From positions 15,105-79,104 of the forward strand of contig CAYFOA010000005.1 in assembly GCA_964344575.1 (NCBI GenBank): a stretch of 64,000 bases of DNA, in the 5' to 3' direction. This stretch comes from an uncultured Rickettsiales bacterium (GTDB lineage Bacteria; Myxococcota_A; UBA796; UBA9615). Positions 1 through 52,358 of this stretch are shown here, piece after piece. Positions within the stretch are counted from its first letter, which is position 1. The number at the start of each line of letters is the position of its first letter. The notes below the pieces were generated by a model. It had not been told where the DNA came from. It ran no database searches and saw nothing but the letters and a program-made list of their open reading frames with translations. Position numbers and translations under genes: made by a program.

Positions 1-451
1 TCCGGAGCCCCCGGATCGCCGTGTCGTAGCTCCCCTGGCGCTGGACCACGCGGTCGTGCTCGTCGCGGTCGCCGTGGATCGAGCAGATGACGAGGTCGAG
101 CTTGCTCAGCTCGTCGATCCGGGACTCGACGAACGTCCCGTTGGTCACCATCGTCGTGTCGAGCCCGAGCCGGTTCGCGTGGGCGATCCACAGCCCCAGG
201 TCCTTGATCAGGGTCGGCTCGCCCCCGTTGAAGACCCACCACCGCGTCCCCATCCGCGCGAACGCGTCCATCATGGGGAGCACCTGCTCCGTCTTCATGT
301 GGCCCGAGGGGACGTGGATGCGGGTGCAGAAGCCGCACTCGACGTTGCACCGGTAGGTCACGAGGTGCGTGACCTTCAGGGGGGTCGACAGGCCCACGCG
401 GGCGCGCGCGAGCGACGCGGCGATCTGCAAGGGCTTGTTCGGGAGACGCAT
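1..451 (-). CDS. Radical SAM domain protein, N-terminal part only. The gene continues past the window start.
   Basis: The reverse-strand translation begins MRLPNKPLQ and contains TYRCNVECGFC, the CxxxCxxC radical SAM cluster motif, followed by a GGEPTL-like motif. It is absent from the ORF track because it has no stop inside the window. The start near 451 is hand-derived. Confidence 0.6.
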   Translation of the reverse strand, partial: MRLPNKPLQIAASLARARVGLSTPLKVTHLVTYRCNVECGFCTRIHVPSGHMKTEQVLPMMDAFARMGTRWWVFNGGEPTLIKDLGLWIAHANRLGLDTTMVTNGTFVESRIDELSKLDLVICSIHGDRDEHDRVVQRQGSYDTAIRGLR

Positions 452-494: not shown

Positions 495-1253
495 GTGTTG
501 CGCCGCCTGACGTGGGACCAGTGGAGGGCGCTGGAGGACGAGTTCGCCGCGCTGGATCCGCCGACGGAGCGGGAGCGCGCCGACGTCGTCGGGCTCTACC
601 TCGTCGCCTGCCTCGCGCTGTGGGCCTCCCAGGACCTCCACAAGCCGCTCTGGTACGCGATCAAGGGGGCGTCCTGGATCCCCGGCGAGCACCGCAGCCT
701 CGCCCGCCACCTCGTCTGGTGCTGGTGGGTCATCGCCTGCTACTCGGTCCCCGCGTGGGCGTACGGCCGGTACGTCCTGGGGATGTCCCTCCGCGACCTC
801 GGGTGGCGGACGGACGGCCTGCTGAAGCACGCCTGGATCTACGTCGCGGGGTTCGCGATCGTCCTGCCGCTCGTGTTCGTCGTCGCTCCGACGCCGGGCT
901 TCCAGGAGACCTACCCCTTCTACCGCGGGGCCGGGAGGGACCTCGGCCCGACGCTGCTGTGGGAGGCCTCGTACGCGGCCCAGTTCGCCGCGCTGGAGTT
1001 CTTCTTCCGGGGGTTCCTCCTCTTCGGGGCGTTCCGCGTGGTCGGCCCGTGGGCGATCTTCGCGATGATGCTCCCCTACCTCGCCATCCACTTCCCCAAG
1101 CCGCCCCTGGAGGCGCTCGCGTCCATCGTCGCGGGGGCGGCGCTGGGGCTGGTGGCGCTGAGGACGAAGTCGATCGTGTTCGGCGTCGTCATCCACGTGG
1201 GCGTGGCGTGGACGATGGACGCGCTGGCCGTCTGGCACCGGGGCGCCGCGTGA
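495..1253 (+). CDS. CPBP family intramembrane metalloprotease (CAAX protease / Abi-like)
   Basis: Polytopic membrane protein with the EExxxR motif (ALEFFFRGFLLFG) and downstream FxxxH / HVGVAW motifs typical of the CPBP/Abi family. Confidence 0.75.
   Translation: MLRRLTWDQWRALEDEFAALDPPTERERADVVGLYLVACLALWASQDLHKPLWYAIKGASWIPGEHRSLARHLVWCWWVIACYSVPAWAYGRYVLGMSLRDLGWRTDGLLKHAWIYVAGFAIVLPLVFVVAPTPGFQETYPFYRGAGRDLGPTLLWEASYAAQFAALEFFFRGFLLFGAFRVVGPWAIFAMMLPYLAIHFPKPPLEALASIVAGAALGLVALRTKSIVFGVVIHVGVAWTMDALAVWHRGAA
1201..1240 (+). repeat. 3' end of the CPBP gene, copy A of a long-range direct repeat
   Basis: The sequence gcgtggcgtggacgatggacgcgctggccgtctggcaccg has a 27-nt exact core that recurs at 16107..16146. 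Confidence 0.7.
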
Positions 1254-1271
1254 GGGGGAGCCCCCGAGTCT

Positions 1272-2006
1272 ATGATCTTCGCGTTGGACACCACCCGCAG
1301 AGCGTGGGACCGGCGCCGCGCGGAGCGGGCGGTCTACCGTTGGAGCCTCGGGCTCGCCGCCGGGATCGGGCTCGCCGCCGCCGCCCTCCCCGGTGAGCTC
1401 GGCGCCATCGTCGCCCGCCGCGGGTACGGGTTCTTCGCCTTCTGGTACCTGACCGTCATCCTGCTCAGCACCCCGTGGGCGCGCTTCCACCGGGGGCGGG
1501 CCGTCGCCCGCGTCATCGCCGTGCGCGAGGCCCTGGGCAACGCCACCACCTTCCACGTCGCCGGCCACGTCCTCGCCATGGGTCTCATGGAGCCGCGGTA
1601 CCTCGTCGACTACCGGAACCCCGAGGACCTGCCCGGGATCGTCAGCTCGACGATCGTGGCGATCCTCGCGATCACCTCGCTCCCGGGCGTCCGGCGGCGG
1701 ATCCCCGGGGTCGCGTGGAAGCGCCTCCACCGGTGGGTCTACGTGGCCTGGGCGCTGATCGTGCTGGTCGTGGTCATGAGCCGGCCGTACACCGCGATCC
1801 CGCACATCGGGATCGTGCTCGTCGTGATCGGGTACCGCGTGGCGCTGTGGCGCGACCGGCGGCGAAAGGGGCACCGCATCGCGGCCGCGGACCTCGCAAA
1901 CTACGCCGCGATGACGGCGACCTTCGCGACCGTGATCGTGCTGACGATGCCCGAGGCGATGAAGGACGGGCTCGGGATCGGCCTCTTCGCGGGGATCGGG
2001 TCGTGA
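1272..2006 (+). CDS. Integral membrane protein, possibly a ferric-reductase-like (MsrQ/YedZ-type) b-heme domain
   Basis: Six predicted TM segments with conserved His residues in TM helices (FHVAGHVLAMGL, RLHRWVYVAW, AIPHIGIV). The family assignment is tentative. Confidence 0.55.
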   Translation: MIFALDTTRRAWDRRRAERAVYRWSLGLAAGIGLAAAALPGELGAIVARRGYGFFAFWYLTVILLSTPWARFHRGRAVARVIAVREALGNATTFHVAGHVLAMGLMEPRYLVDYRNPEDLPGIVSSTIVAILAITSLPGVRRRIPGVAWKRLHRWVYVAWALIVLVVVMSRPYTAIPHIGIVLVVIGYRVALWRDRRRKGHRIAAADLANYAAMTATFATVIVLTMPEAMKDGLGIGLFAGIGS

Positions 2007-3688
2007 GCGCAGCGACGGAGCCGCCGCCGCGCGGGTGGCGCGTCGTGCGGGCGGCGGGCGCCGTCGTCCTGGTCTGGATCGCGCTGGACCTTGTCTTCGG
2101 GGTCGCCCTTCCCGGCGCCGCGACCCTGGAGCAGCTCGCGTTCGCGGCCGTCGTCGAGCTTCCGGTCTACGTCATCTTCGGCGGCCCCCTGGTGTGGACG
2201 GGGGGCGCCGCCGCGATCGTCGCTGCGATCACGCTGCGGAGCCGCTTCCCCGGCCCTGCGGAGTTCCTCGGGGAAGCGTTCCAGGCCGCCGCGTGGGCGG
2301 TGGTCGGAACGGCCGGGATCGTCGGCGTGCTGAAGCTCCCGGTCCTGACGCTGCCGCTGGTGGCGGTGGCCGCGGGGAGCGCGTTCGTGCACGCGCGCGC
2401 CGCCCCCGATCGACCGACCGGACGCGCTCGCACCGCGGCGGCCGTCGCCCTGGTCGCGGTCGTGGGCGGGGCCGCCGTCGTGCAGCTCCACGCGCTCGTC
2501 TGGTCGGACGAGCTGTGGCGGTCGATCGTGGCCGCGATCGACGACGGCGCCGCCCCCGCGCGCGTCGCCCTGGTCGGCTCCGTCGTCGCCGCGGCGGGGC
2601 TCGTCGCCACGCTCCTGCCGATCCCGTTGGAGCGCCTCACGACGGACCGCGCCATCCCCCGCTGGCTGCCCCGATTCGCCCTCGGTCTCTTCCTCGCCGG
2701 CGCCCTCGGTCACGAGCGCGCGCTGGCGGGTCCGTACTTCTCGCTGTGGGGGATCGACGTGCCGGAGGCGCTGCACCGGCTCGACCGCGACCCGCGCCGC
2801 GTGCACCCCGAGGCGTTTCGGCTCGCGGCCACCGACGACGGCTCCACGCTGCTCGTCGTCTACCGCCAGAGCACCCGCCTCGCCCTCTACTCGAGCCGGG
2901 GCGGCGGCGGCCGCGGGATCCCGCTCGCCCTCCCCGACGAGGGCACGCTGGAGAACGTCGTCTGGGACGGCGCGCGGGATCGCTTCCTCGTCAGCTTCGA
3001 GCATGACGACCCGACGGCCCCGGACGCGCTCCTCGTCGTCCCCCGCGCGGGCACCCCGATCGGGCGACTGGAGGTCCCCGACCACGGCTGGATCGCCTCG
3101 CTGACCATCGACGGCGACGACCTCCTCATCGGCTACGAGGCGCGGCCGACGCTGCTCCGCTGGGATCTCGCGACGGACCGCCCCCGCGAGCCCCTCCGCC
3201 TCCCCCGCCTCGGAGACGTGGAGGACGCCGTCGCGGTCGGGGGGAGGCTCTACACCGTGCCCCTGCACCACCCCTGGGGGCTGCACCTGAGCGAGGTCGA
3301 CGTCGACGCCGGCGCCATCACCCGGCAGCTCCGCATCGGGGGCGCGAACCAGCAGCTCGTCGCGGCCGGAGACCGCCTCCTCACGGGCCGCTACTACGCC
3401 TCCCGGGTGACGGTCATCGACCGCGTCGCCTGGCGCGTCGAGCGCTCCCTCCGGGCGGGCTTCGGGGTGCGCGCGATCGGCGTCGACGTCGGGCGCGGCC
3501 TCGTCGTCACCGGCGGGCAGTACGCGGGGGAGCTGCGCGTGCACGACCTCGCGGACGGCCGCGAGCTCGCCCGCGTCCCCAGCTGCGGCTACGTCAAGGA
3601 CCTCGTCGTCGTCCGCGGCGCCGCCTTCTTCGCTTCCCTGTGCGGGGTCTGGCGCCTCGACCTCGACGCCCTCGAGCAGGCCCCGTGA
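2003..3688 (+). CDS. Membrane-anchored hypothetical protein with a C-terminal beta-propeller-like domain
   Basis: The GTG at 2003 overlaps the upstream stop (GTGA). The N-terminal 200 aa are hydrophobic and the C-terminal ~350 aa are repeat-like and soluble. It shares a frame with track ORF 1475..3688. Confidence 0.55.
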   Translation: MSAATEPPPRGWRVVRAAGAVVLVWIALDLVFGVALPGAATLEQLAFAAVVELPVYVIFGGPLVWTGGAAAIVAAITLRSRFPGPAEFLGEAFQAAAWAVVGTAGIVGVLKLPVLTLPLVAVAAGSAFVHARAAPDRPTGRARTAAAVALVAVVGGAAVVQLHALVWSDELWRSIVAAIDDGAAPARVALVGSVVAAAGLVATLLPIPLERLTTDRAIPRWLPRFALGLFLAGALGHERALAGPYFSLWGIDVPEALHRLDRDPRRVHPEAFRLAATDDGSTLLVVYRQSTRLALYSSRGGGGRGIPLALPDEGTLENVVWDGARDRFLVSFEHDDPTAPDALLVVPRAGTPIGRLEVPDHGWIASLTIDGDDLLIGYEARPTLLRWDLATDRPREPLRLPRLGDVEDAVAVGGRLYTVPLHHPWGLHLSEVDVDAGAITRQLRIGGANQQLVAAGDRLLTGRYYASRVTVIDRVAWRVERSLRAGFGVRAIGVDVGRGLVVTGGQYAGELRVHDLADGRELARVPSCGYVKDLVVVRGAAFFASLCGVWRLDLDALEQAP

Positions 3689-6096
3689 TCGTGCTCCAGA
3701 CGGCCGCCATCGTCGCGGTGGGGGTGTTCGTCTTCGGCCTCCCCGGCGCGCTCCTGGGCCGGCTCCTCGTGCCCCGCGCCGCCCCTCACGAGCGCCTCGT
3801 GCTCACGGGCGCGGCCGGCTTCTCCGTGCTGCCGCTGGGGCTCTACCTCGTCGCCACCTTCGCCGACCGGCCCATCACGCCGGGGTTCGTGCTCGTGGCC
3901 GCGGCCGCGGCGAACGCCTCGCTCGGGGCGGTCCTCCTCCGCCGGGGCGGGGACGTCGAGCGACCGGACACCAGGGCGCTCGCCGCCACCGCCGCGATGC
4001 TCGTCGCGTTCGGCGTGCTGCTCGCGGGCAGCGTGCAGCCGATCGGCGGCGTCGACGTCTTCGCGACCATCCACCACTGCATGTACGTGATGGTCCTGTA
4101 CGCCATCGGGAACGACCCGAGCGTCGGGATCCCCCTGTACGACGGCGTCGATCGCACCGTGCTGAGCCTCCTCGCCCACCACCCCCACGAGCCGCTGGGC
4201 GGCCTCGGCGGGCTCTTCGGCGAGCAGCGGCCCGGCAACGTCGCCCTGCTCGCGCCTCACGTCAGCCTCTTCGGCACGGTCGGCTGGCTGACGGCGCCCG
4301 TGCTCGCGTCGACCGTCGGCGCGGCGGCCTGCTACGCGGCGGCGCGGGAGCTGGGCGCGCGACCGGCGGTGGCGGCGGTCTGCGTCGGGGCCGGCATGCT
4401 CGGCGTGCACTCGTTCCTCGGCTACGTCATCAACGAGAACCTCTTCGGCTTCGCGCTCCTCGCCGTGTTGACGTGGCTGCTCGTCCGGCGCGACCTGTCC
4501 CCGGGGATGCTCGTGCTGGCGGGGTTGCTGATGGCCCACGTCGTCGGCGTGCGCTACACGGCGTGCCTGTTCTGGCCGGCGCTGGCGTGGCGGTTCGCGA
4601 CGGTCGAAGCGGTCGGCCGGCCGGCCCGGCGCGCCGCGCTGTGGGCGGTGCCTGCGGGGGTGCTGTCGGTGCCCTGGCTCGCCCTCAACGTCGGCCTCCT
4701 CGGCACCCCCTTCGCGCACCCCGCCGGCGCGCTCGATCTCGACGCTTCCGTGGTCGAGAACCTGCTCCCGGGGACCGACGCCGTCTTCCGCTTCAAGGCG
4801 CTGAACTACCCGTTCGCCGAGGCGCTGGTGCGCGCGCCCTGGAACCCGTTCCCCAACGCGCTGATGGTGCCCCTCCGCACGGCCCAGGAGCTCGGCGCGC
4901 CGCTGCTGGCGCTGGGGCTGGGCGGGCTCGTCCTCCACGCGGCCGGGGATCGGCGGCGGGCGCTCGCGCTGCTGGCCTTCGCGGCGCCCCACCTGCTCGC
5001 GATCGCGTGGCTGGAGAACCTGAACCGGGCCCAGCTGACGTACGTCGTGCTCGGGCTGGCCCCGCTCCTCGCGTGGGCCGCGGGGGGCGCGGAGGCGGCG
5101 GTCGCGCGGCCGCGGGATCGGGCGACGTGGGCCGCGCTGGGGGGCGCCGCTGTCCTCGTCGTGGGGGGCGGGTTCGTCGCGCGGGCGGTCGACGTCCCCC
5201 CGGACGAGCGCCTGGCCGGGGACGGCGCCGCGATCGGCCCCGACCCGGGGCTCGCCCGCGAGCTCACGACCCCGCGGCTGCTGCCCGCCCTCGCGCCCCT
5301 CCGGACGGACCGGCTCGCCGCGACGGCGGCGGCGATCCGCCACCACCGCTGGCGGCGCGGGGACGGCCGCTACCGCTCGGGCGAGGTCGCGATCACGGTG
5401 CCGGTGGGGCGCGCCGAGCCGACGACGTGGAGCTTCACCCTCACCGGTCGCCCCCACCGCCGCGAAGGCGATCCGGTCCGCACCTCCCAGGGGCTCCAGA
5501 CGGTGACGCTGGCGCTGCCGGTCGCCGAGGTGGAGGTGCGCGTGCGCGGCGCCCGGGGGGAGTACGAGGTCGCGGTCGATCCCGTCGGCCCCGAAGGGGA
5601 GGTCCACGACTTCACGTTCTTCGTCCACGGCTGGTCGCAGCCCACCCACGCGGTGGCGGTCCGCTGGAAGGGGCTGCCCCTGCCGGACGTGCGCTTCGAG
5701 CAGACGGAGTCCGAGCACGAGTGGCGCACGGGCGTCACCACCAACGTGCCCCCGCGCCTGCTCGGCCTCGTGGACGTGCCGTTCACGGTCGACCTGGGCG
5801 GGCTGGAGGCGGACTGCGGCTACTTCACCTTCGTGGGGCGGGGCGGGGGAGGGCACCGACACCCCTGGACGGGGGCCCGGTCGGGCACGATCCCGCTCCC
5901 GCCGGCCCTGCGGACGGACCGCGTCGTGTTCCTCCCCGACCCCTACTGCCGCCCGGGCCCGCCCCAGCCGGGCGCGCGCTACGCCGAGGCGGCCGGCCCC
6001 TTCGGTCCGGGACGCCCGATCCGCCTCCGCGTCGATCGCGCCTTCGGGCTGCGAGGGGGCGGCTGGCTCGAGTTCCACGACCCCCCGGGCCGGTAG
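3640..6096 (+). CDS. Polytopic membrane protein with a C-terminal soluble domain, possibly a GT-C-type glycosyltransferase
   Basis: About 11 TM helices followed by a ~300 aa non-membrane domain. An alternative start is the GTG at 3685, which overlaps the upstream stop as GTGA. Confidence 0.6.
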   Translation: MRGLAPRPRRPRAGPVIVLQTAAIVAVGVFVFGLPGALLGRLLVPRAAPHERLVLTGAAGFSVLPLGLYLVATFADRPITPGFVLVAAAAANASLGAVLLRRGGDVERPDTRALAATAAMLVAFGVLLAGSVQPIGGVDVFATIHHCMYVMVLYAIGNDPSVGIPLYDGVDRTVLSLLAHHPHEPLGGLGGLFGEQRPGNVALLAPHVSLFGTVGWLTAPVLASTVGAAACYAAARELGARPAVAAVCVGAGMLGVHSFLGYVINENLFGFALLAVLTWLLVRRDLSPGMLVLAGLLMAHVVGVRYTACLFWPALAWRFATVEAVGRPARRAALWAVPAGVLSVPWLALNVGLLGTPFAHPAGALDLDASVVENLLPGTDAVFRFKALNYPFAEALVRAPWNPFPNALMVPLRTAQELGAPLLALGLGGLVLHAAGDRRRALALLAFAAPHLLAIAWLENLNRAQLTYVVLGLAPLLAWAAGGAEAAVARPRDRATWAALGGAAVLVVGGGFVARAVDVPPDERLAGDGAAIGPDPGLARELTTPRLLPALAPLRTDRLAATAAAIRHHRWRRGDGRYRSGEVAITVPVGRAEPTTWSFTLTGRPHRREGDPVRTSQGLQTVTLALPVAEVEVRVRGARGEYEVAVDPVGPEGEVHDFTFFVHGWSQPTHAVAVRWKGLPLPDVRFEQTESEHEWRTGVTTNVPPRLLGLVDVPFTVDLGGLEADCGYFTFVGRGGGGHRHPWTGARSGTIPLPPALRTDRVVFLPDPYCRPGPPQPGARYAEAAGPFGPGRPIRLRVDRAFGLRGGGWLEFHDPPGR

Positions 6097-6106
6097 AATC
6101 GACGCG

Positions 6107-10633: not shown

Positions 10634-10635
10634 GG

Positions 10636-12750
10636 ATGGTGCGGTCGCGGCGCGCGATCCACGCGGCGTCGGCCGCGCTGTTCGGCTTCGTCGCGATCAC
10701 GGGGCTGTACGTGCTCCTCGCCGAGCTGTTCACGCCCGGCTACTTCCCGATGCTCGCCGCTCACGTGTACGTCGGCCTGCTCCTCGCGATCGCCGTGCCG
10801 ATCGGGCTGGGGCTGCACCTGAAGCGGACGTCGTCGCCCGGGCTCCGGTCGATGCTGCCGGTGGTCGCGCTCCTCGCGATCCCGACCCTGCTGGTGGAGA
10901 TCGCGCTGCGGGCGGAGATCCGGAGCGTGCAGGACGTGCCCAGTCGGGACGGGCTCGACCGGCTGTTCGGGGAGATCGCCCTGCTCGTCTGGGGCACCGA
11001 CGGCGGCGACGGCGCCACGGTGGGGTCCGCGGCGGGCCTCGCGACCGGGCTGGCGCTCTTCTCCGCGGCGCTGGCGTGGTGGCTGCGCGAGCGGCAGCCG
11101 TCGGTCCCGGTGCGGTGGACGGGGGTGCTCGCGACGGCGGCGCTCATGCTCGCGGTGACGACCGGCCTGACCAGCTGGCTGGGGCGGGGGGACGCGCGCT
11201 TCGACGCGTTCGCTGCCCACTCCCTGGTCGGCCTCCTGTGCATCGTCGCGACCGTCGCCCACCTCCGCGCGCCCCGCCGGTGGCTCGGGCCGCGCCTCGG
11301 CGCGGTGGCGCTCGTGGCGGTGCTCGCGGGGGCGACCTGGGCGTGGGTCGAGACCTACCCCGAGGAGCACACCTGGCGCGTGCAGGACGACGTCCCCGAG
11401 ATGGGCCCGCGGGACCTGCACGCCGACGGTGCAGACCTCGGGCAGCCGATCGACGCCTCGCTCCTCGAAGGCTCGGCCGGTTGCGGCGAGGCCGGCTGCC
11501 ACGAGGCCCTCACCCACCAGTGGCAGGGGTCGGCGCACGCCTTCGCGGCGGACAACGCGCTGTACCGGGCGGTGGTGCGGCAGCTCGTGAGCGAGAGGGG
11601 CGCGGGCGAGGCACGGTTCTGCGCCGGCTGCCACGACCCCGTGAGGGCGCTCGCGGGCACGGTCGAGGCCGCGTACGCCGCCGGCGATCCGCCTCCCGGC
11701 GAAGGCGTCTCCTGCGTGGTCTGCCACGTGATGGTGGCGCACACCGGCGAGCCCAAGAACGGAGACGCCGCCTACCGCACGCCGATCCCCTACCCGGGCA
11801 CCGACGAGGACCAGCGCGCGGCCCGGATCCGGCTCGATCCGCGCTACCACCGGATGACGATGACCTCGCCGCTGACCGTGCACCGCGAGCTGTGCGGCAC
11901 CTGCCACCGCGTCCGGCTCGGTCCGTTCATGGGGGCCGCGGTCGAGGTCGAGGTCCAGAACGCGTACGAGGGCGAGGGCTCGATGGGGGGGTACGGCGGC
12001 ACCAGCCAGCTCTGCAGCGACTGCCACCTGCCCACGACGACGGAGCAGCCGCGGCACAGCCTGCTGCTGTACGACCACCAGATGGGTGGGCTGAACCTCG
12101 ATCTGCCGGCCTACGTGACCCACCCCGAGGCCGACCGGGCCGCCCTGGCGGACGGCGTGGCCCGAGTCGAGGCCATGATCGCGGGCGCGCTCCCCGACGG
12201 GCGCCAGTTCCCGCCCCCGCCCTTCGTGGCCGACTGGCCGCTGGCCGAGGGCGCGCCGGGGGTCCTCGCGGTCGAGGTGACGCCGACGCGCGTCGCCGAC
12301 CAGCTGGCGGTGCGCGTGACGACCGGGAACCCCCGCATCGGGCACGCCTTCCCCGTGGGCCCCTTCGACCTGCGGGAGGTGTGGCTCCGGGTCGTCGTCC
12401 GGGACGATGCCGGAGACGCGATCGCGACCCTCGGCGCCCTGGACGCCGACGGCCGCGTGCCCGAGGACGCGCCCCGCCTCGGCGCCGTCGAGCTCGACCG
12501 GTCGGGGCAGCCGCTCCGGCGGCACCGCATCTGGGACGTCGCCGGCGTCCGCGACAAGCGCACGATCCCCCGCGGCGGCACCGTCACCGACGACGTCGTG
12601 CTGGCCCTGCCTCCGGACGCGGCCGGGCCCCTCACGGTCGAGGCGACCTGGCTGGTCCGCCGCACGAACCCCGACTTCGCCGCCTTCGCGCTGGGGCCCG
12701 AGCACCCCGGGTTCCCCGTCCACGAGGTGGCCTGGGGGCGGTCGCCGTGA
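10636..12750 (+). CDS. Membrane-anchored multiheme c-type cytochrome
   Basis: N-terminal ~6-TM domain with His-containing helices, then four canonical CxxCH heme motifs (CAGCH, CVVCH, CGTCH, CSDCH) and one CX4CH (CGEAGCH). The start is the first ATG after the upstream stop. Confidence 0.75.
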   Translation: MVRSRRAIHAASAALFGFVAITGLYVLLAELFTPGYFPMLAAHVYVGLLLAIAVPIGLGLHLKRTSSPGLRSMLPVVALLAIPTLLVEIALRAEIRSVQDVPSRDGLDRLFGEIALLVWGTDGGDGATVGSAAGLATGLALFSAALAWWLRERQPSVPVRWTGVLATAALMLAVTTGLTSWLGRGDARFDAFAAHSLVGLLCIVATVAHLRAPRRWLGPRLGAVALVAVLAGATWAWVETYPEEHTWRVQDDVPEMGPRDLHADGADLGQPIDASLLEGSAGCGEAGCHEALTHQWQGSAHAFAADNALYRAVVRQLVSERGAGEARFCAGCHDPVRALAGTVEAAYAAGDPPPGEGVSCVVCHVMVAHTGEPKNGDAAYRTPIPYPGTDEDQRAARIRLDPRYHRMTMTSPLTVHRELCGTCHRVRLGPFMGAAVEVEVQNAYEGEGSMGGYGGTSQLCSDCHLPTTTEQPRHSLLLYDHQMGGLNLDLPAYVTHPEADRAALADGVARVEAMIAGALPDGRQFPPPPFVADWPLAEGAPGVLAVEVTPTRVADQLAVRVTTGNPRIGHAFPVGPFDLREVWLRVVVRDDAGDAIATLGALDADGRVPEDAPRLGAVELDRSGQPLRRHRIWDVAGVRDKRTIPRGGTVTDDVVLALPPDAAGPLTVEATWLVRRTNPDFAAFALGPEHPGFPVHEVAWGRSP

Positions 12751-14411
12751 GCCGGGCCCGGTGCGCCTGGTTGCTGGCGGTGCTGGCCGCCTGCCCCGCG
12801 CCCGACGACGACGACGACTTCGCCGTGGGCGACGACGACGACGACGACGCGACGGTCGAGACCCGTCCCCTGGGGCCGGGCTCCGAGGGGGACTTCGCCT
12901 GGGGCGACGACGTCGTCTGCGAGGACCCCTTCGCGGGGTGGGCCGGCCGCTTCGTCGAGGACGGCGCCGATCGCGGGCTGACCGAGGTGCTCGCGGGGGA
13001 GCTCATCGAAGACGGCGGCATCTACGAGGGCTACGCGTCCGTCGTGCCCGCCGACCTCGACGGGGACGGGGACCTCGACCTCGTCTTCGGGCACGACGGC
13101 GGCGCCGTGCACGCGTACCTCAACGACGGCGCCGGGGACTTCGACCCGGCCCCGACCTTCGAGTCGCCCCCGACGTGGCCGCACGGAGACCAGCCGCCGC
13201 TCCTCGCGGTGGCCGACCTCGACGGCGATGCGCTGCCCGAGGTCCTCGCCGTGGGGGAGCAGGCCTGGGTCTGGGACGACCTCGGGGACGGCTCGTGGGG
13301 CGCGCCCGCCGTGATCGCGGCGTCGTTCGACGAGCCCCCGGCGGCGCTGACGGTGGGCGACACCGACGGAGACGGCGACCTGGACGCCGTGCTCGGCACC
13401 TTCGCGGCGGGCCCCGACGGCCCGTACTTCCCGGAGCTCCTCCTCCTCAACGACGGCGCCGGGGGGTTCACCGTCGCGGGCGAAGTCGTCGCGACCGCCG
13501 GCCACGTCAGCACCCAGGCGATCACGCTGACGGATCGGGACCTCGACGGGGACCCGGACCTGTTCGTGGCGGACGGGATGTTCGACGCCGCCGCCCCCTC
13601 GGCCTTCTTCACCAACGACGGCAGCGGCGGCTTCACCGACGAGGCGGCGGCCCTGTCGGCGGACCTCGTGCTCGCGGGCATGGGGTTCGCGACCTGGGAC
13701 TGGAACGGCGACGGCGCCTTCGACTACTGCGTGACCGACGTCGGGCCGGCGCGCTGCCTCGTGTCCGACGGCGGGGGCCGGTTCTTCGAGGCCACCGCCC
13801 AGATCGGGCTGGGGCCGGCGGAGCGGCCGTTCGAGGAGCTCGAGGTCGCCACGATCGGCTGGTCGCTGGACGTCGTCGACCTGGACCACGACGGCGTGCT
13901 CGACGCGGTGCAGGCGTCGGCCCCCGACTTCGGCACGGGCCTCGCCCCGGATCAGCTCCGCTGGCCGGACCTCGTGTGGCGGGGGACGTCCGACGGCGCG
14001 TTCGTCGACGTCACCGGCGGCTCCGGCTTCGGCACGTCCGACGCCAACTACGGGTCCGCGCCGGGCGACTTCGACGGGGACGGCAGCCAGGACATCGTCG
14101 TCGCCGGCCCCGGCCGCCGGCCCCGCCTCTACCTGAACCGGTGCAGCGCCGGGGGCTGGCTGGAGGTCGAGCTGCTCGGCCCCCCGGGCAACGCCGACGC
14201 CATCGGCGCCGTGCTGTGGGTCGACGGGGCGTCGCCGCGGGAGCTCCAGGGGCCGCGGGGGTGGGGGCAGCGGCCGAGCCGGTTCCACGTGGGCCTCGGG
14301 GACGCGACGGAGGCCTCGCTGGAACTCCGCTGGCCGGACGGTGCGGTCAGCACGATCGACCGGCTCCGGCCGCGTCGTCGCGTCGTCGTCACCCACCCTG
14401 CTGCGCGCTAG
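12747..14411 (+). CDS. ASPIC/UnbV plus FG-GAP repeat lipoprotein (CRTAC1-like)
   Basis: The GTG overlaps the upstream stop (GTGA). It has a lipoprotein signal (VSRARCAWLLAVLAAC), DxDGDGxxD FG-GAP repeats and a UnbV_ASPIC-type C-terminus (AIGAVLWVDG...FHVGLGDATEASLELRWPDG). Confidence 0.75.
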   Translation: MSRARCAWLLAVLAACPAPDDDDDFAVGDDDDDDATVETRPLGPGSEGDFAWGDDVVCEDPFAGWAGRFVEDGADRGLTEVLAGELIEDGGIYEGYASVVPADLDGDGDLDLVFGHDGGAVHAYLNDGAGDFDPAPTFESPPTWPHGDQPPLLAVADLDGDALPEVLAVGEQAWVWDDLGDGSWGAPAVIAASFDEPPAALTVGDTDGDGDLDAVLGTFAAGPDGPYFPELLLLNDGAGGFTVAGEVVATAGHVSTQAITLTDRDLDGDPDLFVADGMFDAAAPSAFFTNDGSGGFTDEAAALSADLVLAGMGFATWDWNGDGAFDYCVTDVGPARCLVSDGGGRFFEATAQIGLGPAERPFEELEVATIGWSLDVVDLDHDGVLDAVQASAPDFGTGLAPDQLRWPDLVWRGTSDGAFVDVTGGSGFGTSDANYGSAPGDFDGDGSQDIVVAGPGRRPRLYLNRCSAGGWLEVELLGPPGNADAIGAVLWVDGASPRELQGPRGWGQRPSRFHVGLGDATEASLELRWPDGAVSTIDRLRPRRRVVVTHPAAR

Positions 14412-14486
14412 GAGCGGCGCCGCGCCCGCCGCGCGAGGTCGAGCACGGCCTCCACGGGGCCCTGAGCCCACCGCCGATCCCGGCCT

Positions 14487-16091
14487 ATGCTGGACGATGG
14501 CGTGCGGCAGCTTCTCCCCGTCCTGATCCTCTCGGCGGCGTGTGGGTCGGTGCCCCCCGAGCCCGAGGCGACGCCCGGCGACCCGGCGGCGACGACCCCC
14601 GGCTACGACGACGGCAGCGCGCTCGCCGATCTCGGCTTCCGCCAGTCGCAGGTCGGTCCGGACGTCGGCTACTGGGCCCGGATCGTCGGCGGGGGGGTCG
14701 TCGCCGCCGACCTCGACGCCGACGGGTTCGACGACCTGTTCTTCCCCCAGGCCGCCGGCGCCAACGCGCTCTACTGGGGGCAAGGGGACGGCACGTTCGT
14801 CGCCGACGCCTCGCTCGCCTTCGACTCCGACGTCACCGTCGCCGCGTCCACCGCGGACGCCGACGGGGACGGCCGCCTCGACCTGCTGCTGCTCGGGCAG
14901 GACGTCCTCCGGTTGTTCCTCAGCGCCGGCGACCGCACCTTCGCGGAGACCGCCATGCCGCCCGTCGACGGCGTCGCGGCCACGTCCGCGTGGGGCGACC
15001 TGGACCTCGACGGGGACCTCGATCTGTTCGTCGGTGTCTATGCTGGAGACACGCCGTCGGAAGCCGCCGGAGGCACCGAGGCGGGGCGGCCCAACCTCTG
15101 GCTCCTCAACGACGGCGCCGCCACCTTCGAGCCCCTGCCCCCGCCCCCCGGCAGCGACGGCGCGCCCCTGCACGCCCTCTTCCGGGACTTCGACCACGAC
15201 GGCCGCCCCGACCTGCTCCAGGTCAACGACTTCGGCCTCGAGGGCGACTGGAACACCATGCTCTGGATGCGCGACGGCGAGGGCGGCTGGATCGACCGCG
15301 CCTCCGAGCTCGGCATCGGGCTGCTCGAGTTCCCCATGGGCGCGCTCCACGACGACCTCGACGGGGACGGCGTCGAGGACCTCTGGTTCAGCAACATCGG
15401 CGCCACCCGCGTCTTCCAGGGGCTGGCCGAGGGCGGCTGGGTGGAGGTGTCCGGCCTGTGGGGCGCGGCCCTGCCGTCGCACCACGAGTCCGTGAGCTGG
15501 AGCGTGCTGCCCGTCGACCCCGACGGCGACGGCCGGCCCGGCGTCTACGTCACCTACGGGCCCATGTCCGAGCTCGACCACGTGCCCGACGACCCCGACG
15601 TCTACTTCGACCAGCCCGACCGGCTGCTCGTCCCGACCTCCGGCGCCGACGACGCCCCGAGCCCGTTCGCGGAGGCGCCCGCCGGTACGCTGGCGGGGCG
15701 GCTGGACGGCAACCACCGGGGCGTCGCCGAGGCCGACCTCAACAGCGACGGGGTGCCCGACCTCGTGGTCGGGGCCGTCAACGGCGAGCCGCTGGTGCTC
15801 CTCGGGCGGCCCGGCGGAGGGCGACGGCTGGCGGTCGAGCTGCGCGATCCGGCGTCGCCCAACGGGTTCGCGATCGGCGCCCGCGTCACCGTCGAGGCGG
15901 GGGGGCGGACGTGGAGCCGCGAGCTCGGCGCGGGCGGGCGCGGGAGCCAGAGCGGCGAGGGGCCCGTGCTCTGGTTCGCGGTCGGGGACGCCGGCGCGAT
16001 CGACGGCCTGGCGGTGGCGTGGCCCGGCGGCGGGAGCGACGTCTTCGACGTGGACTGCGTGGACTGCCGGATCGTGCTGACGCGACCCTAG
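14487..16091 (+). CDS. ASPIC/UnbV plus FG-GAP repeat lipoprotein, paralogous to the preceding gene
   Basis: Lipobox LSAAC, FG-GAP repeats and a UnbV_ASPIC C-terminus (FAIGARVTVEAGG...VLWFAVGDAGAIDGLAVAWPGG). Confidence 0.8.
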   Translation: MLDDGVRQLLPVLILSAACGSVPPEPEATPGDPAATTPGYDDGSALADLGFRQSQVGPDVGYWARIVGGGVVAADLDADGFDDLFFPQAAGANALYWGQGDGTFVADASLAFDSDVTVAASTADADGDGRLDLLLLGQDVLRLFLSAGDRTFAETAMPPVDGVAATSAWGDLDLDGDLDLFVGVYAGDTPSEAAGGTEAGRPNLWLLNDGAATFEPLPPPPGSDGAPLHALFRDFDHDGRPDLLQVNDFGLEGDWNTMLWMRDGEGGWIDRASELGIGLLEFPMGALHDDLDGDGVEDLWFSNIGATRVFQGLAEGGWVEVSGLWGAALPSHHESVSWSVLPVDPDGDGRPGVYVTYGPMSELDHVPDDPDVYFDQPDRLLVPTSGADDAPSPFAEAPAGTLAGRLDGNHRGVAEADLNSDGVPDLVVGAVNGEPLVLLGRPGGGRRLAVELRDPASPNGFAIGARVTVEAGGRTWSRELGAGGRGSQSGEGPVLWFAVGDAGAIDGLAVAWPGGGSDVFDVDCVDCRIVLTRP

Positions 16092-16106
16092 CGGGCGCGG
16101 GGGCGG

Positions 16107-16146
16107 GCGTCGCCTGGACGATGGACGCGCTGGCCGTCTGGTACCG
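16107..16146 (+). repeat. Remnant copy B of the CPBP gene 3' end, in the intergenic gap upstream of the metalloprotease gene
   Basis: The sequence gcgtcgcctggacgatggacgcgctggccgtctggtaccg is 35/38 identical to 1203..1240. It still reads VAWTMDALAVWYRLRP* in frame, with its TGA overlapping the ATG at 16156. Confidence 0.7.
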
Positions 16147-16155
16147 TCTCCGGCC

Positions 16156-17556
16156 ATGAGCCGGCTCCTCCTCGCGGCGCTCCTGACCCTCCTGTGCGCG
16201 TGCCCCGCGCCGGAGTCCGAGCCGGTCCCGGTCGTCCCCGAGGACCCCGGCCCCTGGCCGATCACCACGGGGCTGAGCGTGACGGACGTCGTGGTCAACC
16301 AGGGGGTCGAGATCGCGCTGCAGCGCGACGGCGAGCCGGTCGCCGAGCGGAACGCCCCCGTCGTCGCCGGGCGGCCGCTCCTCGTCCGCGTCGCCGTCGC
16401 CACGGACTTCCTCTGGAACCCGCGGGAGGTGCGCGCCGAGCTGACCCTGCTCCAGCCCGACGGGACGTCCGACCGGCGCGACCAGGTCGTCTTCGTCGAC
16501 GAGGACGGCGACCTGCTCGACCCCGACACGACCCTGCACTTCCGGCTCGCGGCGACCGACGTCCTCCCGGGGACGCGCTTCGCCGTCAGCTTCTGGGCGA
16601 CCCGGGACCTGGGCCAGGACGGCGACCCCGTGGCGTGGCCCGCGTACGGCGAGACGGCGCCGCTGCTGGCCGACGACGCCGGCGGCCTGCTCCGCGTCTG
16701 GCTCCTCCCCGTCCGCTACACCGCCGACGGCAGCGACCGCCTCCCCGACACCAGCCCCGAGCAGATCCGCCTCCTCGAGGAGACGCTCGCCGGGATGCTG
16801 CCGGTGCGGGCCGTCGAGCTGTCGGTCCTCGACCCGATCGAGACGACCGAGCACTGGGACAGCGGAGGCGCGTCCATGGGCGCGCTCCTGAGCCACCTGC
16901 GCGACCTCCGCGAGAACCTCCACGTCCCCTGGGACACGTACCTGTACGCGCTCGTCAGCCCCCGCAACACGTGGGGCGGGTTCTGCAACCTCGGCTGCAC
17001 CGCGGGCATCTCCTACCGGCCCACCAACCCGATCAACGACCGCCTCCGCGTCAGCGTCGGGCTGGGCTTCACCGGGGTGAACGCCGCCTACGTGATGGTC
17101 CACGAGCTCGGCCACGCGCACGACCGGGGGCACGCGCCGTGCGGCAACGCCGGCAACGTCGACCCCGACTTCCCCTACGTCGGCGGCTGGATCGGGACGC
17201 GCGGGTACGACGTCGTCAACGACGTCCACTACGGCACCGTCGACGCGTACGACGTCATGGGGTACTGCGACCCGGACTGGGTGAGCGACTACACCTACGC
17301 GGCCGTCCACGAGCGGATGGGGGCGGTCGAGGGGCTGCGGGACGAGCACAGCGCCCGCGCGGTGGAGGACTGGACGGCGATCGACGTGTTCGGCGGCGAG
17401 GTCCGGAAGGTCCACCCGACGCGGTCGTTCGCGTTCACCCCCGAGGGCGATCGGGTCGACGTCGAGCTCCCCGACGGCCGCACGGTCGAGGGCTGGCGCG
17501 TCCCCATGACGCACATCGACGGGGCGACGATCTTCGTCCCCGGCGCGATCGACTAG
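16156..17556 (+). CDS. Secreted zinc metalloprotease lipoprotein
   Basis: Lipobox LLCAC and the zinc-binding motif HELGHAHDRGH (HExxHxxxxxH). The ATG overlaps the stop of a CPBP-gene remnant (CCATGA). Confidence 0.7.
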   Translation: MSRLLLAALLTLLCACPAPESEPVPVVPEDPGPWPITTGLSVTDVVVNQGVEIALQRDGEPVAERNAPVVAGRPLLVRVAVATDFLWNPREVRAELTLLQPDGTSDRRDQVVFVDEDGDLLDPDTTLHFRLAATDVLPGTRFAVSFWATRDLGQDGDPVAWPAYGETAPLLADDAGGLLRVWLLPVRYTADGSDRLPDTSPEQIRLLEETLAGMLPVRAVELSVLDPIETTEHWDSGGASMGALLSHLRDLRENLHVPWDTYLYALVSPRNTWGGFCNLGCTAGISYRPTNPINDRLRVSVGLGFTGVNAAYVMVHELGHAHDRGHAPCGNAGNVDPDFPYVGGWIGTRGYDVVNDVHYGTVDAYDVMGYCDPDWVSDYTYAAVHERMGAVEGLRDEHSARAVEDWTAIDVFGGEVRKVHPTRSFAFTPEGDRVDVELPDGRTVEGWRVPMTHIDGATIFVPGAID

Positions 17557-19196: not shown

Positions 19197-19203
19197 GCCG
19201 TCC

Positions 19204-19950
19204 TCAGGTCCCGAAGTACGCCGCGCGGACGTCGGGGTTGGCGAGGAGCTCGGCGCCGGTCCCCTCCAGCACGGGGGAGCCGTTCTCGAGGATGAGCGCC
19301 CGGTCGACGCAGGGGAGCAGCGCGCGGGCGTACTGCTCGGTGACGATCACCGAGATCCCGCGCTCCGTCCGGATGGCGGGGATCGCGTCGGCGACGACCC
19401 GCTGCAGCGCCGGCGCCAGCCCGAGGAGCGGCTCGTCCAGCAGCAGCAGCCGCGGCTGGGCCATCAGCGCGCGGCCGATCGCCGCCATCTGCTGCTCGCC
19501 GCCGGACAGGAAGCCCGCGCGGCGCTTGAGCAGGCCCCGCAGCGGGGGGAACAGGTCCAGCACGAAGTCGAGCGTGGCGCGCGCCTGGGCGGCGGTGGCG
19601 AGGTGGGCGCCGATCTTCAGGTTCTGCAGGACCGTGGACTCGGCGAACAGCCGCCGCCGCTCGGGGCACAGGACGATCCCCCGGCGGGCGCGGGCGCTCG
19701 CCTCCAGTCCCCCGATCGGCTCCCCCTCGAACGTCAGCGTCCCGAACGTCGCGATCCGCTCGCCCCCCCGCATCCGCTCCTTGCGGGCGAGGTCCACGAC
19801 GATGCCGGACAGCGCGTACATCAGCGTGGACTTGCCCGCCGCGTTGGCCCCGAAGACGCCGACCACCTCGCCGCCCTCGCAGCGCAGGGAGACGCGGTTC
19901 AGGGCCGCGAGGTTCTCGTAGTAGACGACCAGGTCGCGGGCCTCGATCAC
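19204..19950 (-). CDS. livF: Branched-chain-amino-acid-type ABC transporter ATP-binding protein (LivF-like)
   Basis: Walker A GANAAGKST, LSGGEQQ signature and Walker B LLLLDEP. The GTG start at 19950 overlaps livG's stop. Confidence 0.85.
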   Translation of the reverse strand: MIEARDLVVYYENLAALNRVSLRCEGGEVVGVFGANAAGKSTLMYALSGIVVDLARKERMRGGERIATFGTLTFEGEPIGGLEASARARRGIVLCPERRRLFAESTVLQNLKIGAHLATAAQARATLDFVLDLFPPLRGLLKRRAGFLSGGEQQMAAIGRALMAQPRLLLLDEPLLGLAPALQRVVADAIPAIRTERGISVIVTEQYARALLPCVDRALILENGSPVLEGTGAELLANPDVRAAYFGT

Positions 19951-21721: not shown

Positions 21722-21722
21722 G

Positions 21723-22589: not shown

Positions 22590-22596
22590 CGGGGGG

Positions 22597-26292: not shown

Positions 26293-26294
26293 CC

Positions 26295-52351: not shown

Positions 52352-52358
52352 CGTTCGC

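What the first reader, a model, noticed from the sequence alone, without database searches (positions are those of the whole stretch)
495..17556. A 17-kb co-directional envelope operon combining a CPBP protease, heme membrane proteins, three GT-C/YfhO-like modules, a multiheme cytochrome c, FG-GAP/ASPIC lipoproteins and a metalloprotease
Nine genes sit on one strand, most joined by GTGA/ATGA 4-nt overlaps, and a radical SAM gene diverges from the 5' end. The set combines b-type and c-type heme membrane electron carriers, YfhO-type glycosyltransferase modules, ASPIC/UnbV beta-propeller lipoproteins and two proteases. I do not recognise this combination as any named pathway. It could be a redox-dependent extracytoplasmic glycosylation or modification system, or an extracellular electron-transfer and adhesion module.
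Basis: partly seen in the sequence, partly recalled or inferred. Interest (0 to 1): 0.75.

Follow-up and report, generated by a model that had tools for sequence, protein, structure and literature searches.

The report
Conserved heme-and-glycosyltransferase envelope gene set
A real nine-gene operon whose six core genes (two membrane heme proteins, three GT-C-type glycosyltransferase modules, two periplasmic propeller proteins) stay together in at least four related uncultured marine bacteria, and whose function nobody has described.

Summary
Nine + strand genes (495-17556) and a divergent radical SAM gene are real by codon-position GC. Only 3 of 8 junctions are 4-nt overlaps.

- g1: CPBP protease.
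- g2: Ferric_reduct/MsrQ-like, 4 invariant His.
- g3: not a heme protein; 7 TM helices plus a periplasmic 7-bladed beta-propeller.
- g4: rare polytopic family, distantly PMT_2-like.
- g6: diheme-b-like anchor fused to a pentaheme cytochrome related to T. tepidum c552 and ExtKL/MccSep.
- g7, g8: CRTAC1/ASPIC lipoproteins.
- g9: HExxH lipoprotein.

Relatives of g2, g4, g5, g6 and g7 lie clustered, in shuffled order, in four other lineages: L002 (no g7 in view), L091+L093, L099, and in part L094. Intact g3 is in L002 and L091. g1, g9 and a g8 orthologue appear in none.

The soluble form of the cytochrome is followed by an ASPIC gene in 52 of 59 loci from many phyla.

My reading: a quinol-linked periplasmic electron-transfer module built on that pair, with dedicated GT-C glycosyltransferases. 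The function is inferred. An extracellular electron-transfer role is not supported.

The parts
1..451 (-). Divergent radical SAM gene. Only the N-terminal 150 aa lie in the window. No N-terminal B12-binding domain; full-length homologues elsewhere carry a SPASM domain.
   Evidence: Translation shows CNVECGFC. Pfam Radical_SAM 60.5 bits. Homologues at 29-32% identity sit next to a g4-like GT-C in L014 and next to GT2 genes near a g6-like gene in L015. No NCBIfam model reaches its cut-off for those homologues.
495..1253 (+). g1: CPBP (Rce1-like) intramembrane protease. A local addition, not part of the conserved set.
   Evidence: PF02517 33 bits against a cut-off of 22.4. NCBIfam MrtA archaeomyxosortase only 55.8 against 200. 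No homologue in any related locus.
1272..2006 (+). g2: Ferric_reduct / MsrQ-like membrane b-heme protein, 244 aa.
   Evidence: PF01794 35.7 bits against 28. MsrQ equivalog not met, 29.6 against 130. Invariant His 73, 99, 153 and 178 across three orthologues. Orthologues at 62-69% identity in L002, L093 and L099, next to GT-C genes.
2003..3688 (+). g3: 7-TM membrane anchor plus a 7-bladed beta-propeller (residues about 255-555), predicted periplasmic.
   Evidence: AlphaFold model has pLDDT of about 90 in the propeller. Foldseek gives generic WD40/YVTN propellers at E 1e-12. No Pfam, NCBIfam or PDB sequence hit. Positive-inside reading of the sequence places the propeller outside. No conserved His ligands in a 10-member alignment. 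g3-like genes pair with g6-like genes in L012, L013, L018 and L100.
3685..6096 (+). g4: 12-TM polytopic protein with a C-terminal domain of about 300 aa. Rare family, distantly PMT_2-like; a probable GT-C glycosyltransferase.
   Evidence: No direct Pfam hit. 181 representatives with E<=1e-3 among 1.84 billion. 6 of 50 relatives weakly match PMT_2 and one matches GT87. The L014 homologue scores PMT_2 27.5 against 26.1 and sits between a 229-aa GT2 and a radical SAM/SPASM gene. Orthologues at 59-66% in L002, L091 and L099.
6107..10633 (+). g5: 1508-aa tandem duplication of a GT-C-fold module (about 6107-8359 and 8360-10633). Each module has a DxxDD motif after TM1 and a YfhO-like C-terminal beta domain plus a last TM helix.
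10636..12750 (+). g6: 7-TM diheme-b-like anchor (residues 1-240) fused to a periplasmic pentaheme cytochrome c with a C-terminal beta domain.
   Evidence: Heme motifs are CX4CH at 283 and CXXCH at 329, 360, 420 and 460. Invariant TM His 43, 61, 195 and 209, and further invariant His 301, 405, 481, 570 and 630, in 14 full-length homologues. The family profile hits PDB 5ze8 (penta-heme cytochrome c552) at E 2e-9, colinear. Weak ExtKL hit.
12747..14411 (+). g7: FG-GAP/ASPIC (CRTAC1-type) propeller lipoprotein. The conserved partner of the cytochrome.
   Evidence: FG-GAP_3 105.8 bits and UnbV_ASPIC 37.1 bits. PDB 9etn (CRTAC1) at E 3e-6. Lipobox LAAC. Orthologues at 38-42% identity in L093, L094 and L099. 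Only Ca-binding DxDxDG motifs are conserved.
14487..16091 (+). g8: second FG-GAP/ASPIC lipoprotein, a distant paralogue of g7.
   Evidence: FG-GAP_3 109.6 bits and UnbV_ASPIC 37.8 bits. 30% identity to g7. Related loci match it only at the generic 27-30% level.
16156..17556 (+). g9: lipoprotein with HELGHAHDRGH (HExxHxxxxxH), a putative zinc metalloprotease. A local addition.
   Evidence: Motif and lipobox LLCAC. No significant Pfam, NCBIfam or PDB hit; M13 and M66 only at E 0.15-0.24. No homologue in any related locus.

Best explanation
The operon is a lineage-restricted envelope module built around a widespread two-gene pair: a pentaheme cytochrome c and a CRTAC1/ASPIC propeller.

Shown here:
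- The conserved set is g2 (MsrQ-like b-heme membrane protein), g3 (membrane-anchored periplasmic propeller), g4 and g5 (three polytopic modules; the g5 module has a GT-C fold with a conserved acidic first-loop motif), g6 (diheme-b-like anchor fused to the pentaheme cytochrome) and g7 (ASPIC lipoprotein).
- g1, g8, g9 and probably the radical SAM gene are local additions.

Inferred mechanism:
- The b-heme domain of g6, and separately g2, exchange electrons with the quinone pool or the cytoplasmic side.
- They relay those electrons through five probably bis-His c hemes to the periplasmic face.
- There the cytochrome works in complex with the Ca-binding propellers g7/g8 and g3. These act as binding or scaffold subunits rather than as redox enzymes.
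- The GT-C modules use polyprenyl-phosphate-linked sugars to glycosylate a periplasmic acceptor that belongs to the same assembly. The most likely acceptors are the module's own lipoproteins or cytochrome, through their Ser/Thr/Pro/Asp-rich linkers, or an envelope glycan that the propellers bind.

The physiological electron donor or acceptor is unknown.
For: Co-conservation with shuffled order:
- L002/L009 (MAG Ust_8) carries g3-g4, g2-g5 and g6, at 59-65% identity.
- L091 carries g3-g4, a g5 C-module and a cytochrome c.
- L093 carries a g5 N-module fused in frame to a g7 orthologue, then g2.
- L099 carries g4-g2-g7-module-module-g6 on one strand, with gaps of -4 to 41 nt.
- L094 carries other GT-C-like genes, a g6-like gene and a g7-like gene.
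- L014 carries a g6-like gene followed by a GT-C-like gene, plus GT2, a g4-like gene and a radical SAM gene.

Other support:
- The cytochrome-ASPIC pair: 52 of 59 evaluable loci from Gemmatimonadota, Planctomycetota, Acidobacteriota, Verrucomicrobiota, Bacteroidota and others have the ASPIC gene directly downstream on the same strand.
- GT-C fold for g5, with an invariant DxxDD motif.
- Heme ligand patterns in g6 and g2.
- Relation of g6 to pentaheme c552.
- 7 TM helices with N-in topology place the c domain and the g3 propeller in the periplasm.
Against: - No experiment or transcript data exist. The conserving lineages share 57-69% identity, so they are fairly close relatives.
- The cytochrome-ASPIC pair occurs without any GT-C gene in distant phyla.
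- More distant g5 relatives (34-40% identity) occur without a cytochrome. They sit next to B12 radical SAM and Rieske genes instead. The two halves can therefore work apart.
- No polyprenyl-phosphate sugar synthase or flippase lies in the operon. The nearest GT2 is at 36676-37476, about 19 kb away.
- g4 is GT-C only by weak hits in its relatives, and profile comparison finds no similarity between g4 and g5.
- FG-GAP genes are very common in this genome, with six in 64 kb. That raises the odds of chance adjacency for g8.
Confidence: 0.42

Rival explanations
1. The operon is a composite. Two or three independent envelope functions sit side by side without working on a common substrate: a cytochrome-ASPIC redox pair, GT-C glycosylation genes, and stray proteases.
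For: - The pair is found alone in 52 loci of other phyla, with no other widely shared neighbour.
- g5 relatives at 34-40% identity sit with B12 radical SAM and Rieske genes and no cytochrome.
- g1 and g9 are unique to this locus.
- No similarity was detected between g4 and g5.
Against: - The same families (g2, g4, g5, g6, g7) remain within one cluster in four lineages despite extensive reordering.
- One lineage has an in-frame GT-C-ASPIC fusion followed by g2.
- g6-like genes also neighbour other GT-C-like genes in L014 and L094.
Confidence: 0.3
2. The operon performs redox chemistry on a lipid-linked or envelope glycan or lipid. In this reading the heme proteins supply or remove electrons for a modification step on the substrate that the GT-C modules transfer. 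The radical SAM and Rieske enzymes seen in relatives would belong to the same pathway.
For: - A radical SAM gene diverges from the operon.
- L002 interleaves the core with two B12 radical SAM genes, a Tes/TrsS-like radical SAM gene, a Rieske oxygenase and an M50 protease.
- B12 radical SAM genes neighbour g5-like genes in L004, L006 and L096-L098.
- A radical SAM/SPASM gene follows the g4-like gene in L014.
Against: - All radical SAM hits are far below the family cut-offs, so no substrate can be named.
- The window's radical SAM gene is not of the B12 type.
- No periplasmic catalytic redox domain was found. The hemes look bis-His, and the propellers conserve no redox ligands.
Confidence: 0.15
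3. The operon is an extracellular electron-transfer or adhesion module.
For: A membrane-anchored multiheme cytochrome of the family that contains ExtKL and cable-bacteria pentaheme cytochromes (PMC11976967). Integrin-like FG-GAP lipoproteins could be surface exposed.
Against: - No outer-membrane beta-barrel and no outer-membrane cytochrome among the nine genes.
- Only five hemes, on one inner-membrane protein.
- This reading gives the conserved GT-C modules no role.
Confidence: 0.06

Closest known systems
Pentaheme cytochrome family: Thermochromatium tepidum cytochrome c552 (PDB 5ZE8) and Geobacter ExtKL/MccSep polysulfide reductase
   Same: Five c-heme sites in the same order, plus a C-terminal beta domain with the H-A-x-P-x-G motif. 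The g6-family profile matches 5ze8 at E 2e-9 and colinearly. There is a weak NCBIfam ExtKL hit.
   Different: - g6 carries an N-terminal 7-TM diheme-b-like anchor that those soluble proteins lack.
- Its first site is CX4CH.
- It has no Cys beyond the heme motifs. The heme-ligating Cys239 and the selenocysteine 325 that make MccSep a polysulfide reductase (bioRxiv 10.1101/2025.11.18.688581) therefore have no counterpart.
- The function of c552 is itself unassigned (PMC11976967).
MsrPQ: MsrQ/YedZ heme-b membrane protein feeding a periplasmic enzyme
   Same: g2 has the Ferric_reduct domain with four invariant His. The logic is also shared: a small membrane b-heme protein hands electrons to a periplasmic partner.
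   Different: The MsrQ equivalog score is far below its cut-off, 29.6 against 130. No MsrP-type molybdoenzyme is among the nine genes. Here the neighbours are GT-C modules and propellers.
GT-C glycosyltransferases that use polyprenyl-phosphate sugars: AftD, ArnT, STT3/PglB/AglB, PMT, and the YfhO family
   Different: - No Pfam GT-C family reaches threshold on g4 or g5.
- g5 is a tandem double module.
- No donor-synthesis gene lies in the operon.
- I found no description of any GT-C system coupled to multiheme cytochromes.
Cytochrome plus beta-propeller periplasmic redox complexes: quinohemoprotein amine dehydrogenase, hydrazine-synthase-like clusters flanking a CRTAC1 gene
   Same: A c-type cytochrome is encoded next to propeller proteins, with a radical SAM/SPASM gene and a protease nearby. 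CRTAC1-family genes were noted between hydrazine-synthase-like genes in Planctomycetota and other phyla (PMC12758564).
   Different: - No small cofactor-peptide gene and no PQQ, CTQ or heme ligands in the propellers.
- The g6 cytochrome shows no sequence similarity to hydrazine synthase subunits in the PDB search.

Membership tests
GT-C glycosyltransferase superfamily (g5 modules) | Polytopic membrane domain with the GT-C fold | tested here: met
GT-C glycosyltransferase superfamily (g5 modules) | Conserved acidic residue(s) in the first extracytoplasmic loop | tested here: met
   D27, D30 and D31 directly after TM1 are invariant in 7 modules, including both halves of g5.
GT-C glycosyltransferase superfamily (g5 modules) | Transfer from a polyprenyl-phosphate-linked sugar donor | not testable with these tools
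   This needs biochemistry. No donor-synthase gene lies in the operon; a GT2 lies at 36676-37476.
Pfam YfhO (PF09586) | Match to the family HMM above the gathering score | tested here: not met
   g5 N-module scores 9.6 bits against a cut-off of 28.5, covering only the last 43 profile positions. The C-module has no hit. One distant relative, P0012, carries PF09586 and aligns colinearly.
PMT_2 / GT-C (g4) | Match to a GT-C family HMM | tested here: inconclusive
   g4 itself has no hit. 6 of 50 relatives match PMT_2 weakly, and one matches GT87. The L014 homologue scores 27.5 against 26.1. No structure model of g4 was made.
Pentaheme cytochrome c552 / ExtKL family (g6 periplasmic part) | Five c-heme attachment sites and sequence similarity to a solved member | tested here: met
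   One CX4CH and four CXXCH motifs, all invariant. 5ze8_A matches at E 2e-9 and colinearly.
MccSep/ExtKL polysulfide reductase | Heme-ligating Cys and catalytic Sec/Cys at the active site | tested here: not met
   g6 has no Cys outside the five heme motifs. NCBIfam ExtKL scores 16.9 against 250.
Diheme membrane cytochrome b (PF01292-like), g6 N-domain | Four conserved His in two TM helices; family HMM match | tested here: inconclusive
   His 43, 61, 195 and 209 are invariant in 14 homologues. g6 has no Pfam hit. One relative, P0074, carries PF01292, and one is named cytochrome b561 by JGI.
Ferric_reduct / MsrQ (g2) | Ferric_reduct domain HMM; MsrQ equivalog; MsrP partner | tested here: inconclusive
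   PF01794 scores 35.7 against 28, which is met. The MsrQ equivalog scores 29.6 against 130, which is not met. No molybdoenzyme is among the nine genes.
CRTAC1 / ASPIC family (g7, g8) | FG-GAP repeats plus a C-terminal UnbV_ASPIC domain | tested here: met
   Both Pfam domains score above their cut-offs. g7 matches solved CRTAC1 (9etn) at E 3e-6. Seven DxDxDG motifs are conserved.
CPBP intramembrane protease (g1) | Rce1-like domain HMM | tested here: met
   PF02517 scores 33 against 22.4. The myxosortase-type model MrtA is not met, 55.8 against 200.
Zinc metalloprotease (g9) | HExxH zinc site and membership of a peptidase family | tested here: inconclusive
   HELGHAHDRGH is present. No family reaches significance; M13 and M66 are at E 0.15-0.24. 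There is no PDB hit.
Porin-cytochrome extracellular electron conduit (Mtr/Pcc type) | Outer-membrane beta-barrel with periplasmic and outer-membrane multiheme cytochromes | tested here: not met
   Only one cytochrome c gene is present, and none of the nine products has a barrel-family hit.

The most novel reading that the evidence does not exclude
The six-gene core may be a previously undescribed kind of envelope machine. In it, transmembrane heme conduits (a b-c5 fusion cytochrome and an MsrQ-like protein) would be mechanistically coupled to GT-C glycosyl transfer. One example would be a redox-gated or redox-driven assembly of a glycoconjugate on Ca-binding propeller scaffolds. The cytochrome-ASPIC pair that is widespread in many phyla would then be the ancestral, still uncharacterised, periplasmic redox unit.
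Probability: 0.2. Interest if true: 0.8.

Novelty: new variant of a known kind. Interest (0 to 1): 0.55.

Why it matters
Every part belongs to a known superfamily, but the conserved combination does not match any described system. The open-access literature I could search holds almost nothing on bacterial ASPIC/CRTAC1 proteins.

Two testable leads come out of this work:
1. A cytochrome c-ASPIC gene pair is conserved across at least eight phyla and has no assigned function.
2. A rare variant of that pair gained a membrane heme-b anchor and dedicated GT-C modules, which hints at a link between periplasmic electron transfer and envelope glycosylation.

If that link is real, it would add a new role for GT-C enzymes or a new class of glycosylated respiratory module. 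If it is not, the locus is still a clean entry point to the function of bacterial CRTAC1 homologues.

Tried and rejected
- Sequence searches of g3, g5 and g9, and of profiles of the g4 and g5 families, against the PDB gave nothing.
- NCBIfam gave no above-threshold family for any of the nine genes or for the radical SAM relatives.
- Profile-profile comparison of g5 with g4 found no similarity. Comparison with the L002 614-aa family found only the C-terminal 70 residues.
- The promoter and terminator scan was uninformative in 75% GC DNA.
- Attempts to see upstream of the window failed. The 99.9-kb source contig is not retrievable; only ENA contigs of 4-9 kb are.
- The metagenome scan with the g5 profile returned only 3 loci.
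- The afdb50 fold library was unavailable.
- A quinohemoprotein-amine-dehydrogenase-like cofactor system was considered and rejected. There is no room for a small peptide gene, and the propellers have no cofactor ligands.
- A myxosortase role for g1 was considered and rejected. The MrtA score is far below its cut-off, and g7-g9 have no C-terminal sorting signal.
- A membrane-lipid (Tes-like) pathway was considered. It rests only on neighbours in L002, not on this window.


Full report
**1. The observation**

The window is about 75% GC, so raw ORF lists are full of spurious frames. The GC content at each codon position and a GC3-based caller agree on nine + strand genes:

| Gene | Coordinates |
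|---|---|
| g1 | 495-1253 |
| g2 | 1272-2006 |
| g3 | 2003-3688 |
| g4 | 3685-6096 |
| g5 | 6107-10633 |
| g6 | 10636-12750 |
| g7 | 12747-14411 |
| g8 | 14487-16091 |
| g9 | 16156-17556 |

A - strand radical SAM gene starts at 451 and is cut by the window edge. A convergent acyl-CoA synthetase plus Liv-type ABC transporter operon starts at 17553 on the - strand and closes the cluster.

Three junctions are GTGA overlaps: g2/g3, g3/g4 and g6/g7. The other gaps are 18, 10, 2, 75 and 64 nt. The layout is operon-like, but 'mostly 4-nt overlaps' overstates it.

**2. What each gene is**

- **g1** is a CPBP/Rce1-like intramembrane protease. Its similarity to the myxosortase-type model MrtA is far below the cut-off.
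- **g2** has a Ferric_reduct domain with four invariant His. It does not reach the MsrQ equivalog score.
- **g3** has no family hit.
  - Its model shows a helical membrane domain and a confident 7-bladed beta-propeller.
  - The distribution of Arg residues in the loops (sequence) gives 7 TM helices with the N terminus inside. The propeller is therefore periplasmic. This topology is an inference.
  - A ten-member alignment conserves no His ligands, so it is not a heme protein.
- **g4** is a 12-TM protein of a rare family, with 181 representatives among 1.84 billion. Only some relatives weakly match PMT_2 or GT87. One homologue, in L014, passes the PMT_2 cut-off and lies between a small GT2 and a radical SAM/SPASM gene.
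- **g5** is a tandem double module; its halves are 36-38% identical.
  - A DxxDD motif follows TM1 and is invariant in all modules.
  - The Pfam YfhO model is not met. A YfhO-annotated relative does align colinearly.
- **g6** has a 7-TM N-domain with four invariant His, at positions 43, 61, 195 and 209.
  - Five c-heme sites follow, with five further invariant His.
  - The family profile hits the T. tepidum penta-heme cytochrome c552 (5ze8) at E 2e-9.
  - That family also contains Geobacter ExtKL/MccSep, a polysulfide reductase that needs a heme-ligating Cys and a selenocysteine (bioRxiv 10.1101/2025.11.18.688581). It also contains the cable-bacteria pentaheme cytochromes (PMC11976967).
  - g6 has no spare Cys. 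It therefore looks like an electron carrier, not that enzyme.
- **g7 and g8** are FG-GAP plus UnbV_ASPIC lipoproteins. g7 matches solved CRTAC1. The two are only 30% identical to each other.
- **g9** is a lipoprotein with HELGHAHDRGH but no significant family match.

**3. Conservation elsewhere**

The g5 family is very rare, with 12 proteins found. So is the g3 family, with 4. Their contigs, plus loci found through the g6 family, give the following picture.

| Locus | Source | Gene content and order |
|---|---|---|
| L002/L009 | MAG Ust_8 | g3-g4; three radical SAM genes, an M50 protease and a Rieske oxygenase on the other strand; g2-g5; two more GT-C-like genes; g6 on the opposite strand |
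| L091 | JGI metagenome | a divergent g5 N-module; then g3-g4, a g5 C-module and a cytochrome c |
| L093 | JGI metagenome | a g5 N-module fused in frame to a g7 orthologue (42% identity), followed by g2 (68%) |
| L099 | JGI metagenome | a g3 remnant, then g4, g2, g7, two separate GT-C modules and g6, all on one strand with gaps of -4 to 41 nt |
| L094 | JGI metagenome | g6-like (47%), g7-like (38.5%), two other GT-C-like genes and a radical SAM gene |
| L014 | genome contig | g6-like followed by a GT-C-like gene, plus GT2, g4-like and radical SAM/SPASM |
| L012, L013, L018, L100 | genome and metagenome contigs | g3-like and g6-like genes lying together |

Neither g1 nor g9 has a homologue in any fetched locus, and g8 is matched only at the generic level. 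The co-conserved set is therefore g2, g3, g4, g5, g6 and g7. Its order is shuffled between lineages, which argues for selection on proximity rather than simple inheritance of one operon.

One caveat applies. These lineages share 57-69% identity, so the phylogenetic depth is modest.

**4. A wider module**

Beyond this lineage, the soluble version of the cytochrome (residues about 270-690 of g6) occurs in many phyla. In 52 of 59 evaluable genome loci, an FG-GAP/ASPIC gene follows it directly on the same strand. Those loci come from Gemmatimonadota, Planctomycetota, Acidobacteriota, Verrucomicrobiota, Bacteroidota and others.

No other neighbour is widely shared. Sigma-54 response regulators appear in 12 loci, Rrf2 regulators in 6 and a radical SAM gene in 6.

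Across 41 ASPIC partners, only the Ca-binding DxDxDG motifs and structural residues are conserved. The propeller therefore looks like a binding or scaffold subunit rather than a redox enzyme.

I found no description of this pair in the searchable literature. The closest is a remark that CRTAC1-family genes sit between hydrazine-synthase-like genes (PMC12758564).

**5. How it most likely works**

Shown here:
- The folds and families above.
- The heme-ligand patterns in g2 and g6.
- The gene linkage across lineages.

The periplasmic placement of the g6 c domain and the g3 propeller comes from my hydropathy and positive-inside reading, not from a topology predictor.

Inferred:
- g6 is a quinone-pool-to-periplasm electron conduit, and g2 is a second one.
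- The propellers g7 (with g8) and g3 are its periplasmic partners.
- g4 and g5 glycosylate an acceptor that belongs to this assembly, using polyprenyl-phosphate sugars.
- The lipoproteins have Ser/Thr/Pro/Asp-rich linkers after the lipobox, which makes them plausible acceptors.

I give this reading 0.42.

The rivals, with my confidence in each:
- **Composite of independent modules (0.30).** This is supported by the pair and the g5 family each occurring without the other in distant contexts.
- **Redox chemistry on a glycan or lipid intermediate, together with radical SAM and Rieske enzymes (0.15).**
- **Extracellular electron transfer or adhesion (0.06).** This lacks any outer-membrane component.

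**6. Novelty and verdict**

The parts are members of known superfamilies. The conserved combination matches no described system, and the underlying cytochrome-ASPIC pair is itself uncharacterised.

I rate it a new variant of known kinds of parts, with interest 0.55. There is a 0.2 chance that it is a truly new coupling of transmembrane electron transfer to GT-C glycosylation.

Noticed in passing
L026-L088 (genome loci): A soluble pentaheme cytochrome c (Cytochrome_C554-type, about 700 aa, sometimes TPR-fused) is followed directly by an FG-GAP/ASPIC gene in 52 of 59 evaluable loci across many phyla. This is a widespread two-gene module with no assigned function. Sigma-54 response regulators (12 loci), Rrf2 regulators (6) and a radical SAM gene (6) recur nearby.
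   Followed up: yes
L004, L006, L007, L096, L097, L098, L002: More distant g5-like GT-C proteins (34-40% identity, about 1560 aa with a PMT_2 second half) are consistently next to a B12-binding radical SAM gene. A Rieske/Ring_hydroxyl_A oxygenase is usually present too. In L004 and L006 there are also a GDSL lipase, a hexapeptide transferase and a Band_7 pair. This looks like a separate conserved neighbourhood of unknown function.
   Followed up: partly
L002:2872-9234: In the closest relative, the core genes flank two B12 radical SAM genes, a radical SAM protein with a Zn_ribbon_HMPTM domain, an M50 protease and a Rieske oxygenase. The Zn_ribbon protein resembles TrsS and tetraether synthase Tes (194 and 174 bits, below the cut-offs).
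   Followed up: partly
L093:171-3368 (protein P0003): A single GT-C module runs in frame into a g7-type FG-GAP/ASPIC protein, through a linker that still looks like a lipoprotein signal (LVCVSC). It could be a real fusion or a lost stop codon. The contig also lacks the module's N-terminus.
   Followed up: partly
L099:266-505: Only the last 74 residues of a g3-like gene (62% identity) remain upstream of g4, directly after a dodecin gene. g3 seems to have decayed in this lineage, while the rest of the set is intact.
   Followed up: no
window 23950-26298 (-), 46129-47730 (-), 47804-48928 (-), 53212-56376 (-): Four more FG-GAP genes lie in the same 64 kb. One has an ASPIC domain plus MopE-type Cu-binding motifs, and one has eight MopE motifs. 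The family is strongly expanded in this genome. Similar giant MopE/FG-GAP genes lie near g6-like genes in L100, and relatives in L019-L022.
   Followed up: partly
window 50810-53177 (-): A BchE-like B12-binding radical SAM gene (195.7 bits against a cut-off of 481) sits next to a class I methyltransferase. It is 27% identical to the B12 radical SAM genes of the L002 island but lies 33 kb from the operon.
   Followed up: partly
window 36676-39530 (-): A small GT2 glycosyltransferase is 31% identical to the GT2 that precedes the g4-like gene in L014. It sits in a run with a DUF2752 gene, a Yip1-domain gene and an unknown gene. It is a possible donor-sugar synthase for the GT-C modules, but it is 19 kb away.
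   Followed up: partly
window 41113-42741 (+): A Ser/Thr protein kinase is fused to an FGE-sulfatase (formylglycine-generating-enzyme-like) domain. Relatives lie near g6-like genes in L017, L018, L021 and L024, and one g4 relative (P0180) carries the same C-terminal domain.
   Followed up: no
window 17553-23892 (-) and 29198-35575 (+): These are ordinary neighbours. The first is an acyl-CoA synthetase with a Liv-type ABC transporter, whose end overlaps the g9 stop by 4 nt. The second is a TetR regulator with a three-part RND efflux pump.
   Followed up: yes
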